Below are positions 51,195-53,386 of a DNA stretch of 64,000 nucleotides, piece after piece. The notes under the pieces are model-generated. The model was not told where the DNA came from, ran no database searches, and was given only the letters and a program-made list of their open reading frames with translations. Position 1 is the first letter of the stretch. Every line of letters starts with the position of its first letter. The translations under genes were made by a program, and so were the position numbers. The stretch lies in assembly GCF_988243305.1 (NCBI RefSeq), contig NZ_OZ547136.1; one strand, written 5' to 3'.

Positions 51195-51461
51195 TTATTG
51201 CCTGGTTGACGCTTCTGAATCGTAATGCACCACACACTGCCAGTCGCTGCCCTGCTGGCAATATATCGCTTCGGTTTGCCCAGGGATCACCCATTGTATT
51301 TCCTCGCCGGGGGGACAGGTCAGCCAAATGCATAACCCGCAGCCGCCGCGTAAATCACGGGGAATATCGCTGACGCGAAAAGTCATGCCCGCTGCCTGCA
51401 ACGCCTTACGGGTTTGTATGACGCCGACCGTGGAGTGAAATAAAAATAAAAACTCTTTCAT
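51195..51461 (-). CDS. small hypothetical protein (88 aa), probably co-transcribed with yjiL
   Basis: ORF start overlaps the yjiL stop by 4 bp (ATGA), suggesting translational coupling; Cys-rich (CGLC, CPPGEE). Confidence 0.5.
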   Translation of the reverse strand: MKEFLFLFHSTVGVIQTRKALQAAGMTFRVSDIPRDLRGGCGLCIWLTCPPGEEIQWVIPGQTEAIYCQQGSDWQCVVHYDSEASTRQ

Positions 51462-52231
51462 CGGCGTTTTCTCACTCGTTGACCAATTACCGCTGCGCCA
51501 ATTGCGCCAGCAAATTGCGCATCAGGATGGGTATTTACCGGCATTCCCAGATGAGATTCCAGCATCCGGGCAAACGTCTGGCAATGACTAACGCCACCAG
51601 TAAACAGAATCGGCGCTTCACAGGAGAGACGAGCAATGAAATTGGCACTCCGCCGCGCCATCGCGTTAATCACTCCAGCGAGAATCGCTTCTGGCGCGAC
51701 GCCCGCTGAGCGCAAGCTGATCACTTCTGATTCGGCAAACACCGTACACATACTCGTGATGGCGTGCGGCGTGACATTTTCGGTAATGCTGTCGAGTTGC
51801 TCGACGCTGGTGCCAAGCGTGCGCGAGATCACCTCCAGGAAACGCCCGGTGCCCGCCGCGCATTTGTCATTCATCAGGAAATCGCACAGGTTACCGTCAT
51901 CATCAAGCTGAATCACTTTGCTGTCCTGACCACCGATGTCGATTACCGCGCGCGTTGCTGGCGCAAGAAACCGTGCGCCCAGCCCGTGACAGGAGATTTC
52001 CGTTACCTGTTTATCGGCAAAATCCACCAGTTGCCGCCCGTAGCCGGTGAGCGTCAGAAACGGCGTTGTCTCTAACCCTTCGCGCAGAGTTTCCCAGGCT
52101 TCAGTAATTGCTGTTGCCGGGCGAAAGGGGGTTGGAACGAGGAAACGGCGCGTAATCACGCCGTCTGCCAGTAAGATCCCTTTGGTGGCTGTAGAACCAG
52201 AATCAATGCCAATCGAATATGTCACTGCCAC
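51458..52231 (-). CDS. yjiL: BadF/BadG/BcrA/BcrD-type ATPase (putative activator of 2-hydroxyacyl-CoA dehydratase)
   Basis: 257-aa ORF; acetate/sugar-kinase-like ATPase N-terminus IGIDSGSTATKGIL and conserved Cys. Confidence 0.8.
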   Translation of the reverse strand: MAVTYSIGIDSGSTATKGILLADGVITRRFLVPTPFRPATAITEAWETLREGLETTPFLTLTGYGRQLVDFADKQVTEISCHGLGARFLAPATRAVIDIGGQDSKVIQLDDDGNLCDFLMNDKCAAGTGRFLEVISRTLGTSVEQLDSITENVTPHAITSMCTVFAESEVISLRSAGVAPEAILAGVINAMARRSANFIARLSCEAPILFTGGVSHCQTFARMLESHLGMPVNTHPDAQFAGAIGAAVIGQRVRKRR

Positions 52232-52234
52232 TCC

Positions 52235-53386
52235 TTACAGCATCTCAATAAAGGCCGCGACACGGGTACTGAGCTGCCCGACATCCGAGGTGGAGTAGTC
52301 TGTTTCAATAGCGATATAAGGAATGTTGTGCTGCTGGCGCACATGACGTTTAATCGTCAGCGATTCCACCGCGTAGGTATGGCACGCCTGCAAAATCACA
52401 TCAACTACGCCATCGACCTGATATTCTTCCACCATTTGGCTGAGCATTTGCAGGCGCTGATCGTTCGGCGAAACACAGGAGCAGCCAATCGCCAGATATT
52501 TATCCGCCAGCGCGTCGTAGACATCGCCCGTTTCTGCCACGCATTGCTCGGTCGCTTTCGCCCCGGTGCAGTTTTCATAACCGACAACCCAGCCGCCATT
52601 CTCTTCAATCGCGCGCACCACTTTTTCTGCTGCGCCGCCAATCGGGCAGCCGGTGATTAAAATGCGCGGACGCGGGTCCAGTCGCTGGCCTTCTTCCCAC
52701 TGCTGACGAACGCGGGCGGTCATTGCATCCAGTTCATTGATCAACGCCTCTTTATCGAACCGGAAGGTTGCGCCGTAAACCACTTTCAGAATGTCGCTGC
52801 CGCTAAGCGCCGGAGGATTTAACTGCCCAAGATGATAAAAATTAGCCAGTGCGCGACGTTCGCGGTTTTTCAGCGCAATGGCATCGCGCAGAGCATCTTC
52901 GCTAATTTCGTGCCCAAAACGTTCTTCTACCGTTTTTTGCAAGCGCAGCATCTCGGCTTTCCACAATGCACGCGAGGCATCGTCCTTAACGCTGTTCGGT
53001 AACTGCATCACATGAACAGGCTTAAACTCCGCCATGTATTCATACATTTTCTTTTTGCCGTCGCAGGTGGTTTCACCGACCACCAGATCAGAAAAGTAGA
53101 AGTAGGGGCATTTATCGGTTTTGCCGAAGCCGTAGCTGCTTTTAATCAGCGGGCAGAGGTTGCGCGGCAGATCTTTCTCGGCTTCTTCAATGGTTTCATC
53201 AGAGGTGGAACAGAGCGAAACCACAACTGCACCGGCTGCCATCGGGATCTCTTGCGGCATAAAGGTGCAGTAAGTGCCAACCAGCGGAATGCCGCGCTCC
53301 TTGAGATCCATGACGGTGAGAAAGCCTTTCTGGCGAGCTTCAGAGAACTGATCGAAAATGGCGGGTAGATCGGTGACAAGTGACAT
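52235..53386 (-). CDS. yjiM: 2-hydroxyglutaryl-CoA dehydratase D-component-like protein
   Basis: ORF 52235..53407; ATG at 53386 has a ggaagga RBS; 3-bp gap to yjiL. Confidence 0.8.
   Translation of the reverse strand: MSLVTDLPAIFDQFSEARQKGFLTVMDLKERGIPLVGTYCTFMPQEIPMAAGAVVVSLCSTSDETIEEAEKDLPRNLCPLIKSSYGFGKTDKCPYFYFSDLVVGETTCDGKKKMYEYMAEFKPVHVMQLPNSVKDDASRALWKAEMLRLQKTVEERFGHEISEDALRDAIALKNRERRALANFYHLGQLNPPALSGSDILKVVYGATFRFDKEALINELDAMTARVRQQWEEGQRLDPRPRILITGCPIGGAAEKVVRAIEENGGWVVGYENCTGAKATEQCVAETGDVYDALADKYLAIGCSCVSPNDQRLQMLSQMVEEYQVDGVVDVILQACHTYAVESLTIKRHVRQQHNIPYIAIETDYSTSDVGQLSTRVAAFIEML

What the first reader, a model, noticed from the sequence alone, without database searches (positions are those of the whole stretch)
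51195..53386. yjiM-yjiL plus an unannotated 88-aa Cys-rich ORF form a tightly coupled three-gene unit
yjiM (dehydratase-like) and yjiL (ATPase activator-like) are 3 bp apart, and the 88-aa ORF overlaps the yjiL stop by ATGA. The set resembles a radical, ATP-activated dehydratase system with an extra small partner. The substrate of this homolog is, to my knowledge, uncharacterised in E. coli, and the small Cys-containing ORF could be an accessory electron-transfer or maturation factor.
Basis: inference. Interest (0 to 1): 0.3.

Follow-up and report, generated by a model that had tools for sequence, protein, structure and literature searches.

The report
yjiM-yjiL-ytiA double-cubane reductase operon
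The three tightly packed genes are real, but the small "unannotated" ORF is the already catalogued E. coli gene ytiA. It is a conserved one-cysteine protein of the putative sulfur/selenium-carrier family, made together with an ATP-driven iron-sulfur reductase (YjiM/YjiL) whose substrate is still unknown.

Summary
On the minus strand, yjiM (53386-52235), yjiL (52225-51458) and an 88-codon ORF (51461-51195) form a compact unit. The ATGA overlap between yjiL and the small ORF is real.

Two details need correction:
- The ORF is not unannotated. It is ytiA (UniProt YTIA_ECOLI; RefSeq "DUF3343 domain-containing / putative Se/S carrier protein"; Pfam PF11823).
- The conserved yjiL start lies 9 nt after the yjiM stop, not 3.

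ytiA is a genuine gene:
- It follows yjiL in 25 of 25 gammaproteobacterial species examined, with its start overlapping the yjiL stop each time.
- dN/dS is 0.08-0.19.
- Cys41 is invariant across the whole family.

YjiM is not a classical 2-hydroxyacyl-CoA dehydratase. It is a single-subunit double-cubane [8Fe-9S] cluster protein (NF040772, 7-Cys motif, 4e-75 to PDB 6ENO). YjiL is its ATP-dependent electron injector.

YtiA has too few conserved cysteines to be an Fe-S protein. Its relatives sit beside YedE, TusA/YedF, cysteine desulfurase/Sec-lyase-like genes and YqeC. In Firmicutes they occur in NifS-DUF3343-activase-DCCP operons with other gene orders. The best reading is therefore a cysteine-based S/Se relay serving the reductase. 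That part is inferred.

Novelty is low and interest modest. The function is still open but now testable.

The parts
52235..53386 (-). yjiM: a class II double-cubane-cluster protein (DCCP), i.e. a single-subunit [8Fe-9S] anaerobic reductase of 383 aa. Conserved Cys codons are C40, C59, C78, C93, C108, C273, C302, C304 and C335.
   Evidence: PF06050 at 6.8e-122. NF040772 at 532 bits, cutoff 350. 4.2e-75 to DCCP 6ENO/7YYL, with 9 shared Cys. RefSeq name as. Named class II DCCP in PMC7317905.
52226..52234 (-). yjiM-yjiL spacer. GGAG (Shine-Dalgarno) lies immediately after the yjiM TAA, and the conserved yjiL GTG start follows 9 nt after the stop.
   Evidence: The TAA-GGAG-N5-GTG/ATG pattern gives a 9-nt gap in 21/25 gammaproteobacterial species.
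51458..52225 (-). yjiL: an archerase-type ATPase (the DCCP reductase) of 255 aa. C122 and C160 are the presumed ligands of the inter-subunit [4Fe-4S] cluster.
   Evidence: PF01869 at 1.1e-76. TIGR00241 at 364 bits. 8.9e-53 to HgdC 1HUX and 5.4e-47 to DCCP-R 7YYL_E; both Cys align in the NDKCAAGTG and CTVFAESE motifs.
51195..51461 (-). ytiA (the '88-aa ORF'): a small protein of the DUF3343 / PF11823 'putative Se/S carrier' family.
   Evidence: PF11823 at 3.6e-13. Annotated in RefSeq and UniProt. Orthologues are 45-80% identical from Escherichia to Aeromonas. dN/dS is 0.08-0.19. The AF2 model has pLDDT 87.
51458..51461 (-). ATGA overlap of the yjiL stop and the ytiA start, indicating translational coupling.
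   Evidence: The overlap is conserved in 25/25 species (4 nt in 21, 1 nt in 3, 11 nt in 1).
51336..51368 (-). Conserved YtiA loop D32-I-P-R-x-L-R-G-G-C41-G42. It contains the only family-invariant cysteine (codon 51339-51341), which is the proposed S/Se-binding residue.
   Evidence: Alignments A1, A2 and A5: P34 and C41 are invariant in 98 sequences. The loop lies between strands b2 (28-32) and b3 (43-49) of the model. Coordinates were checked.
51251..51281 (-). Step in divergence inside ytiA at about codon 61. It marks the boundary with the strain-variable downstream island.
   Evidence: Against K-12, codons 1-60 give dN=0 and dS=0.05. Codons 61 to the end give dN=0.27 with dS saturated.

Best explanation
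This is the known E. coli yjiM-yjiL-ytiA operon.

Supported by sequence comparison with characterised homologues (no biochemistry exists for the E. coli proteins):
- YjiM is a homodimer-type double-cubane cluster protein. By its conserved 7-Cys motif it should bind an [8Fe-9S] cluster.
- YjiL is its archerase partner. It holds a [4Fe-4S] cluster between two subunits and uses ATP hydrolysis to push a low-potential electron into YjiM.
- ytiA is a real gene. Its start overlaps the yjiL stop, so it is presumably translated by coupling to yjiL.
- YtiA is predicted with good confidence to be a small ferredoxin-like alpha/beta protein. It has a single invariant cysteine (C41) in an unstructured loop between two strands.

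Inferred: YtiA acts as a cysteine persulfide/perselenide-type relay dedicated to the reductase. Two roles are possible.
(a) It hands sulfur (or selenium) from a desulfurase/lyase to YjiM, to build or repair the extra bridging mu2-sulfide of the double cubane.
(b) It presents a cysteine-bound chalcogen species to YjiM, to be reduced with YjiL-supplied electrons.

I favour (a)/(b) jointly over any Fe-S, electron-carrier or regulatory role. I cannot separate (a) from (b) with these tools.
For: Identity of YjiM and YjiL: plus PMC7317905.

ytiA is real and coupled:
- It follows yjiL in 25/25 gammaproteobacterial species, with overlapping start and stop.
- A purine-rich SD-like motif lies inside the 3' end of yjiL.
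- dN/dS is 0.08-0.19.
- It is present in 5385/5426 E. coli genomes.

One functional Cys: only P34 and C41 are invariant among 98 family members.

The family context is S/Se trafficking. Of 11 distant DUF3343 genes sampled, 9 had informative neighbours:
- YedE/Sulf_transp x4.
- TusA/YedF-type x2.
- Aminotran_5 (cysteine desulfurase/Sec-lyase-like) x2.
- YqeC x2.
- Activase plus HGD-D x2.

Literature on the family:
- Lin 2015 (PMC5322559) proposed the Se/S chaperone role. It lists an activase and HGD subunits among the STRING partners of DUF3343.
- duf3343 is among the top five genes overlapping selD (10.1101/2022.04.13.486033).

Independent linkage to DCCPs in other gene orders:
- Tyzzerella: NifS-DUF3343-activase-DCCP-M20-PatB.
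- Dorea (x2): NifS-classI DCCP-DUF3343-activase.
- Acetobacterium (x2): DCCP-activase-NifS, then a convergent DUF3343.
- NifS (TIGR03402, 568 bits, above cutoff) lies within 6 kb in 9/55 Firmicute loci.

Haft reports that 955/970 NF040772 proteins occur in SelD-containing genomes (10.1101/2022.07.06.499078).
Against: - No DUF3343 protein has been characterised biochemically in anything I could find, so 'Se/S carrier' is itself a genomic-context hypothesis.
- Most Firmicute YjiM-like loci (48/55) have no DUF3343 within 6 kb. The protein is therefore not a universal requirement of DCCPs.
- DCCP from C. hydrogenoformans assembled its cluster when overproduced in E. coli without a dedicated partner being supplied (PMC7317905).
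- Persulfide or perselenide reduction does not obviously need an ATP-boosted low-potential electron.
- I found no ribosome-profiling or proteomic evidence for YtiA.
- The C-terminal third is poorly conserved, and truncated or frameshifted alleles exist in databases.
Confidence: 0.5

Rival explanations
1. One reading: a radical 2-hydroxyacyl-CoA dehydratase with its ATP-dependent activator, plus a small Cys-rich Fe-S or electron-transfer partner.
For: - The HGD-D and BcrAD_BadFG domains are present.
- YjiL is 8.9e-53 to HgdC.
- YjiM lacks the channel-closing N-terminal helices of DCCP_Ch, so a CoA-ester-sized substrate is considered possible (PMC7317905).
- YtiA has a C41-x2-C44 pair and C49 in Enterobacteriaceae.
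Against: - There is a single HGD-D gene and no alpha/beta pair.
- The HadC equivalog model gives 95.9 bits against a cutoff of 700. NF040772 double_cubane gives 532 bits against 350.
- All 7-Cys-motif positions are present.
- C44 and C49 of YtiA are not conserved in the Aeromonas, Hafnia or Morganella orthologues, nor family-wide. One Cys cannot ligate an Fe-S cluster.
Confidence: 0.08
2. YtiA is a non-catalytic regulatory or structural subunit. It could be PII/ACT-like, or a CxxC thiol switch. It would gate YjiL ATPase activity or stabilise the YjiL-YjiM complex without carrying S or Se.
For: - The best fold matches are PII signalling proteins (Foldseek E 0.014, TM about 0.5).
- The conserved Cys loop occupies the position of the PII T-loop, between b2 and b3.
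- Coupling to yjiL, with overlapping start and stop, would suit co-production with the ATPase.
Against: - The fold similarity is weak and generic.
- This reading does not explain why family members sit next to YedE, TusA, desulfurase and YqeC genes that lack any activase.
- It does not explain the single invariant Cys.
Confidence: 0.15
3. YtiA works in general selenium (or sulfur) trafficking, for example feeding SelD, and is only an operon passenger of yjiLM with no direct role in the reductase.
For: - duf3343 often overlaps selD (10.1101/2022.04.13.486033).
- Most sampled family members are not next to a DCCP.
- Most Firmicute DCCP loci lack it.
Against: - The overlapping yjiL-ytiA junction is kept in 25/25 species from Escherichia to Aeromonas, although flanking genes differ.
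- The DUF3343-activase-DCCP grouping recurs in at least three other gene orders in Firmicutes, and in a remnant inside a YqeC/XdhC cluster.
Confidence: 0.15
4. The 88-codon ORF is a spurious or decaying reading frame.
For: - The C-terminal third is variable, and a divergence step lies inside the gene.
- Truncated or frameshifted variants of 56-70 aa occur in sequence collections, several starting at a C6 run.
- No expression evidence was found.
Against: - dN/dS is 0.08-0.19.
- The N-terminal 52 residues are near-invariant across genera.
- It scores above the Pfam gathering threshold.
- The AF2 model is confident (pLDDT 87).
- Synteny and coupling are conserved in 25/25 species.

Confidence: 0.02

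Closest known systems
DCCP / DCCP-R of Carboxydothermus hydrogenoformans (CHY_0487/CHY_0488; PDB 6ENO, 7YYL)
   Same: - A single HGD-D-family subunit with the 7-Cys motif; YjiM shares 9 Cys and matches at 4.2e-75.
- An adjacent archerase ATPase (YjiL 5.4e-47 to 7YYL_E).
- An ATP-dependent two-component reductase logic.
(PMC7317905.)
   Different: - YjiM lacks the N-terminal region (about 36 residues by the local alignment, residue 26 of YjiM = residue 62 of 6ENO) that includes the channel-closing helices, which makes it 'class II'.
- There is a 3-residue deletion between Cys5 and Cys6.
- A third, coupled gene (ytiA) is present.
- No activity or substrate has been shown for the E. coli proteins.
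2-hydroxyacyl-CoA dehydratases with their activators (HgdAB/HgdC, HadBC/HadI)
   Same: They share the protein superfamily (PF06050) and the activator family (PF01869). YjiL matches HgdC at 8.9e-53, with both cluster cysteines conserved.
   Different: These enzymes are alpha/beta heterodimers with 3-Cys [4Fe-4S] sites. Here there is one subunit gene with the double-cubane motif, and the HadC model score is far below cutoff.
DUF3343 / PF11823 'putative Se/S carrier' proteins next to selD, yedE, yedF or Sec-lyase genes (Lin et al. 2015, PMC5322559)
   Same: They share the domain, the size (80-100 aa) and the single invariant Cys. Tight or overlapping coupling to the upstream gene is also seen.
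   Different: In E. coli and other gammaproteobacteria the partner is the activase/DCCP pair, not a selenium-utilisation gene. No member of the family has an experimentally proven function.
Persulfide relay proteins (TusA, SufE, CsdE) and NifS-dependent metallocluster maturation
   Same: This is a 'works-like' analogy only. These are small one-Cys proteins that shuttle activated sulfur from a PLP desulfurase to an acceptor. NifS-type genes are found beside DCCP/DUF3343 in Firmicutes.
   Different: There is no sequence or specific fold relationship: no such families appear among the fold-search hits, and the loop motif is different (PxPRxL(S/R)xxCG). Transfer chemistry is untested.

Membership tests
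Double-cubane cluster protein (DCCP; NCBIfam NF040772) | Score above the curated cutoff of the equivalog model | tested here: met
   532.2 bits against a cutoff of 350.
Double-cubane cluster protein (DCCP; NCBIfam NF040772) | 7-Cys motif: six cluster ligands plus the seventh Cys near the cluster | tested here: met
   C40, C59, C78, C108, C273, C302/C304 and C335 align to Cys of 6ENO. C59 aligns to chain residue 95, which I take to be the 'Cys94' of the paper with a one-residue offset (PMC7317905). Spacings are identical except for a 3-residue deletion.
Double-cubane cluster protein (DCCP; NCBIfam NF040772) | Adjacent gene for an ATP-dependent archerase reductase | tested here: met
   yjiL lies 9 nt downstream and matches TIGR00241 at 364 bits. 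An activase is adjacent in 64/80 related loci.
Double-cubane cluster protein (DCCP; NCBIfam NF040772) | An actual [8Fe-9S] cluster and ATP-dependent reduction | not testable with these tools
   This needs anaerobic purification, then spectroscopy or crystallography.
2-hydroxyacyl-CoA dehydratase | Two paralogous subunits (alpha/beta) encoded together | tested here: not met
   There is only one HGD-D ORF in the locus.
2-hydroxyacyl-CoA dehydratase | Match to a characterised dehydratase subunit model above cutoff | tested here: not met
   NF052456 HadC gives 95.9 bits against a cutoff of 700.
Archerase / acyl-CoA dehydratase activase (PF01869, TIGR00241) | ASKHA ATPase domain, plus two Cys per monomer for the bridging [4Fe-4S] cluster | tested here: met
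   1.1e-76 and 364 bits. C122 and C160 align with the Cys of HgdC 1HUX.
PF11823 Se_S_carrier (DUF3343) | Pfam gathering score, and a size of about 70-100 aa | tested here: met
   49.2 bits against a cutoff of 25; 88 aa.
PF11823 Se_S_carrier (DUF3343) | The single highly conserved Cys of the family | tested here: met
   C41 is invariant in 98 aligned members. The conserved Cys is noted by Lin 2015 (PMC5322559).
PF11823 Se_S_carrier (DUF3343) | Binding or transfer of sulfur or selenium | not testable with these tools
   The only evidence is genomic context. I found no biochemical study.
Small Fe-S / ferredoxin-type electron carrier (for YtiA) | At least 3-4 conserved Cys ligands | tested here: not met
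   Only C41 is conserved. C44 and C49 are lost in the Aeromonas, Hafnia and Morganella orthologues.

The most novel reading that the evidence does not exclude
YtiA is the missing link between two unexplained correlations: double-cubane reductases with SelD, and DUF3343 with SelD/YedE/YedF. In this reading YtiA-Cys41 carries selenium (or sulfur) to or from YjiM. One version has the YjiL/YjiM pair as an ATP-driven reductase of a protein-bound chalcogen species, for example supplying selenide. The other has the bridging ligand of the double cubane installed or exchanged (S or Se) through YtiA. Either way, E. coli yjiLM-ytiA would become the tractable model for finding the physiological role of DCCPs.
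Probability: 0.15. Interest if true: 0.7.

Novelty: already known. Interest (0 to 1): 0.3.

Why it matters
Double-cubane [8Fe-9S] reductases were discovered in 2018. They are nitrogenase-like in chemistry, reducing acetylene and hydrazine, yet no physiological substrate is known. E. coli YjiM/YjiL is the genetically easiest example.

YtiA is an annotated but ignored gene that is always coupled to yjiL in gammaproteobacteria. It belongs to the putative S/Se-carrier family, and the same family recurs with NifS in Firmicute DCCP operons. This gives a concrete experimental handle: C41 mutants, S/Se loading, and pull-downs with YjiM or YjiL.

As a genome-scan finding, however, it is an already catalogued operon and not a new gene.

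Tried and rejected
1. A viral-contig scan for YjiM relatives found nothing relevant.
2. Word-based homologue searches for YtiA and YjiM returned only Enterobacteriaceae. Diversity came instead from the exhaustive representative search and the genome-contig scan.
3. Apparent BcrAD-YtiA 'fusions' (P0245, P0262, P0264) are activase fragments joined to YtiA. They are most likely frameshift artefacts at the 4-nt overlap, not natural fusions.
4. Searching solved structures by sequence found nothing for YtiA (best E 0.05, spurious). Fold searches gave only generic ferredoxin-like hits. The afdb50 library was unavailable.
5. I looked for a promoter, an FNR box or a terminator:
   - No sigma-70 consensus lies upstream of yjiM.
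   - FNR-like sites in the yjiN-yjiM spacer have 3 mismatches, and 388 sites that good occur in the window.
   - No terminator follows ytiA.
   - FNR control therefore rests on the literature only (PMC12724342).
6. I looked for translation evidence for E. coli ytiA:
   - Nearly all literature hits for 'ytiA' concern the B. subtilis L31 paralogue. The one E. coli mention, an in-silico interaction prediction, gives no expression data.
   - Two E. coli Ribo-seq or small-protein proteomics papers have no ytiA entry in the supplements held.
7. Gammaproteobacterial 'fam5' neighbours (470 aa) clustered with PatB C-S lyases only through a shared aminotransferase-type region. I did not test them and did not count them as PatB.
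8. I considered predicting a linker-fused YjiM-YtiA complex. I rejected this because the tool returns no coordinates or PAE with which to judge an interface.
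Full report
**What is there**

The window is E. coli. Positions 51100-51560 are 100% identical to isolate SC418 (NZ_LR778147.1). Three ORFs lie head to tail on the minus strand:
- yjiM: 53386-52235, 383 aa from the annotated ATG.
- yjiL: 52225-51458, 255 aa.
- An 88-codon ORF: 51461-51195.

RefSeq uses the second GTG (52225). Across 25 gammaproteobacterial species the arrangement is TAA-GGAG-N5-GTG/ATG, which gives a 9-nt gap in 21 of them. Either way the genes are tightly packed.

**The small ORF is not unannotated**

RefSeq annotates it in the identical strain as a "DUF3343 domain-containing protein" and in K-12 as ytiA, 85 aa. UniRef carries it as "Uncharacterized protein YtiA, YTIA_ECOLI". 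The exact 88-aa sequence occurs on at least 1000 contigs (the counting cap). It matches Pfam PF11823 "Putative Se/S carrier protein-like" at 3.6e-13, or 49.2 bits against a gathering score of 25. A match to the region is present in 5385 of 5426 complete E. coli genomes.

**Is it a real gene?**

ORF length alone proves nothing here, since 52 ORFs of at least 40 aa overlap 49-56 kb. Conservation settles the question.
- I scanned one genome per species for YjiM relatives and obtained 80 loci. All 25 gammaproteobacterial loci carry yjiM-yjiL-DUF3343 in that order. These include Escherichia, Citrobacter, Klebsiella, Raoultella, Kosakonia, Cedecea, Trabulsiella, Kluyvera, Hafnia, Morganella and Aeromonas.
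- In every one the small gene's start overlaps the yjiL stop: 4 nt in 21, 1 nt in 3 and 11 nt in Hafnia. A purine-rich SD-like motif usually lies at -7 to -14.
- Pairwise dN/dS for ytiA is 0.08-0.19, against 0.04-0.08 for yjiM and 0.05-0.14 for yjiL.
- Residues 1-52 are almost invariant within Enterobacteriaceae, while the C-terminal third is variable.
- AlphaFold2, run with a 98-sequence alignment, gives a confident model (pLDDT 87.3, pTM 0.75). The topology is b1-a1-b2-loop-b3-(a2)-b4-b5.

I found no ribosome-profiling or proteomic record of YtiA. YjiM protein itself has been seen by MS (10.1101/2021.07.26.453744), and yjiM is listed in the FNR regulon (PMC12724342).

**What YjiM and YjiL are**

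YjiM is not a classical dehydratase.
- There is a single HGD-D gene and no alpha/beta pair.
- It scores 532 bits on NCBIfam NF040772, "double-cubane-cluster-containing anaerobic reductase" (cutoff 350). It scores only 95.9 bits on the HadC dehydratase model (cutoff 700).
- It aligns at 4.2e-75 to the structurally characterised DCCP of C. hydrogenoformans (6ENO/7YYL). The two share nine cysteines: C40, C59, C78, C93, C108, C273, C302, C304 and C335. These cover every position of the published 7-Cys motif (PMC7317905).
- The Dobbek group's review names YjiM a probable "class II" DCCP. It lacks the channel-closing N-terminal helices, so it might take a larger substrate (PMC7317905).

YjiL matches TIGR00241 (364 bits), HgdC 1HUX (8.9e-53) and DCCP-R 7YYL_E (5.4e-47). 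The two cluster cysteines, C122 and C160, are conserved. By homology the pair is an ATP-driven, low-potential two-component reductase. No substrate is known (PMC7317905; 10.1101/2022.07.06.499078).

**What YtiA is likely to do**

"Cys-rich" overstates the case.
- Of five cysteines, only C41 is invariant. With P34 it is one of just two invariant residues among 98 family members.
- C44 and C49 are conserved in Enterobacteriaceae but replaced in Aeromonas (CGLA), Hafnia (CGLS) and Morganella (CGLG).
- One cysteine cannot ligate an Fe-S cluster, which argues against an electron-carrier role.
- C41 sits in the conserved motif DIPRxLRGGCG, in the loop between strands b2 and b3.

Context is more informative. 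I sampled 11 distant family members found by an exhaustive profile search, and nine had informative neighbours:
- YedE/Sulf_transp directly upstream in four.
- TusA/YedF-type proteins in two.
- Aminotran_5 (cysteine desulfurase/Sec-lyase-like) in two.
- YqeC (a selenium-cofactor maturation marker) in two.
- Activase plus HGD-D in two.

This agrees with Lin et al. 2015, who proposed a Se/S chaperone and whose STRING table already lists an activase and HGD subunits as DUF3343 partners (PMC5322559). It also agrees with the finding that duf3343 is among the five genes most often overlapping selD (10.1101/2022.04.13.486033).

**Linkage to double-cubane proteins beyond E. coli**

Among 55 Firmicute YjiM-like loci (57-70% identical to E. 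coli YjiM), 41 have the activase within the stretch examined, directly beside yjiM in nearly all. Only 7 have a DUF3343 gene within 6 kb. Five of those seven combine it with a NifS-type cysteine desulfurase (TIGR03402, 568 bits, above cutoff) in different gene orders:
- Tyzzerella: NifS-DUF3343-activase-DCCP-M20 peptidase-PatB C-S lyase.
- Two Dorea genomes: NifS-(class I-like DCCP paralogue)-DUF3343-activase.
- Two Acetobacterium genomes: DCCP-activase-NifS, followed by a convergent DUF3343.

Other context observations:
- NifS lies within 6 kb in 9/55 Firmicute loci. My own rough estimate of the chance expectation is about one locus. The loci are not phylogenetically independent, since they come from six genera.
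- PatB-family C-S lyases flank six Firmicute loci.
- A cystathionine beta-lyase, a DAACS transporter and a LysR regulator flank the Citrobacter and Trabulsiella loci.
- A metagenomic contig has DUF3343 followed by activase and DCCP remnants inside a YqeC/MoCF/XdhC cluster.
- Haft reported that 955 of 970 NF040772 proteins occur in SelD-containing genomes (10.1101/2022.07.06.499078).

**Mechanism I commit to**

- Supported by homology: YjiL uses ATP to inject low-potential electrons into the double-cubane cluster of YjiM. ytiA overlaps the yjiL stop, so YtiA is presumably made by coupling to YjiL.
- Inferred (about 0.5): YtiA is a one-cysteine persulfide/perselenide-type relay serving this reductase.
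- One possible role is delivery of activated S (or Se) for the bridging mu2-sulfide that distinguishes [8Fe-9S] from two [4Fe-4S] clusters.
- The other is presentation of a cysteine-bound chalcogen species for reduction.
- I cannot separate these two roles.

Points against are as follows.
- Most Firmicute DCCP loci lack DUF3343.
- DCCP_Ch matured in E. coli without a supplied partner.
- No DUF3343 protein has been characterised.
- Persulfide reduction does not obviously need such a strong reductant.

Rivals are an Fe-S electron carrier within a true dehydratase system (0.08), a PII-like regulatory or structural subunit (0.15), an operon passenger acting in general Se trafficking (0.15) and a spurious ORF (0.02).

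**Comparison with the known, and novelty**

The operon, all three genes and their family assignments are already in RefSeq, UniProt, Pfam and NCBIfam, so the finding as stated is already known. This analysis adds four points:
- The coupling of ytiA to yjiL is conserved from Escherichia to Aeromonas.
- The only essential-looking cysteine is C41.
- DUF3343 recurs with NifS, activase and DCCP in independent arrangements.
- This ties together two published but unconnected correlations with selenium metabolism.

That makes the open question of DCCP physiology somewhat more testable in E. coli. It does not reveal a new kind of system.

**Verdict**

Novelty is "already known" and interest is 0.3. The most novel reading not excluded is that YtiA is the S/Se link that explains DCCP function. 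I give it about 0.15 probability and 0.7 interest if true.

Noticed in passing
window 48722-50884 (-): A 720-aa pentapeptide-repeat protein (PF00805, 7e-33) lies in an AT-rich island (GC 0.32-0.40, against 0.53-0.56 in yjiLM). It has a 24-nt tandem repeat x10.5 at 48821-49072, in the part of the gene that encodes the C-terminal KQASDSxE-type repeats. It is inserted between ytiA and the SdiA-regulated yjiK-like gene. It is absent from K-12, and the full junction is shared by 639 of 5426 E. coli genomes.
   Followed up: partly
window ~51251-51281 (ytiA codon ~61): Divergence steps up sharply inside ytiA relative to K-12. Codons 1-60 give dN=0 and dS=0.05. Codons 61 to the end give dN=0.27 with saturated dS. 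This suggests a recombination breakpoint at the edge of the variable island, and it yields 88-aa and 85-aa alleles with different C-termini.
   Followed up: partly
window 51309-51315 (ytiA codons 49-51): There is a C6 homopolymer run. Several database variants (P0004, P0075, P0090; 62-87 aa) are frameshifted exactly here. These are either sequencing errors or slippage-prone alleles.
   Followed up: no
L038 9196-10488 (-), Acetoanaerobium pronyense: A PF11823 (DUF3343) domain is fused to the N-terminus of a radical-SAM protein (HydE-like by my reading). It sits next to a second radical-SAM gene, about 2 kb from a yjiM-yjiL pair. This is a natural fusion linking the family to a radical-SAM enzyme.
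   Followed up: partly
L096 5001-6120 (metagenomic contig): DUF3343 is followed by remnants of an activase (aa 86-214) and of a DCCP (aa 221-383, frameshifted). They are embedded in a YqeC / MoCF-biosynthesis / MOSC / MoaC / XdhC cluster, which is the context of selenium-dependent molybdenum hydroxylase maturation.
   Followed up: partly
L011 7153-7927 (Citrobacter koseri NCTC10786); L095 7403-8682 (E. coli O145 RM12367): yjiL is split into two pieces in this C. koseri assembly. yjiN is annotated as frameshifted in the O145 strain. Both look like sporadic decay of operon neighbours.
   Followed up: no
L033-L088 (Firmicute loci): YjiM-like proteins of Clostridium, Enterococcus, Lachnospiraceae and others are 57-70% identical to E. 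coli YjiM over the full length. That is unusually high across phyla and suggests horizontal transfer of the yjiM-yjiL module. Flanking genes are otherwise not conserved.
   Followed up: partly
window 53502-54782 (-) and 54823-56064 (-): yjiN (DUF445, 6.6e-120) lies upstream of yjiM in 17/25 gammaproteobacterial loci. mdtM follows it here. The 'yjiL-mdtM gene cluster' has been implicated in susceptibility to proline-rich antimicrobial peptides (Krizsan 2015, cited in PMC8801401).
   Followed up: no
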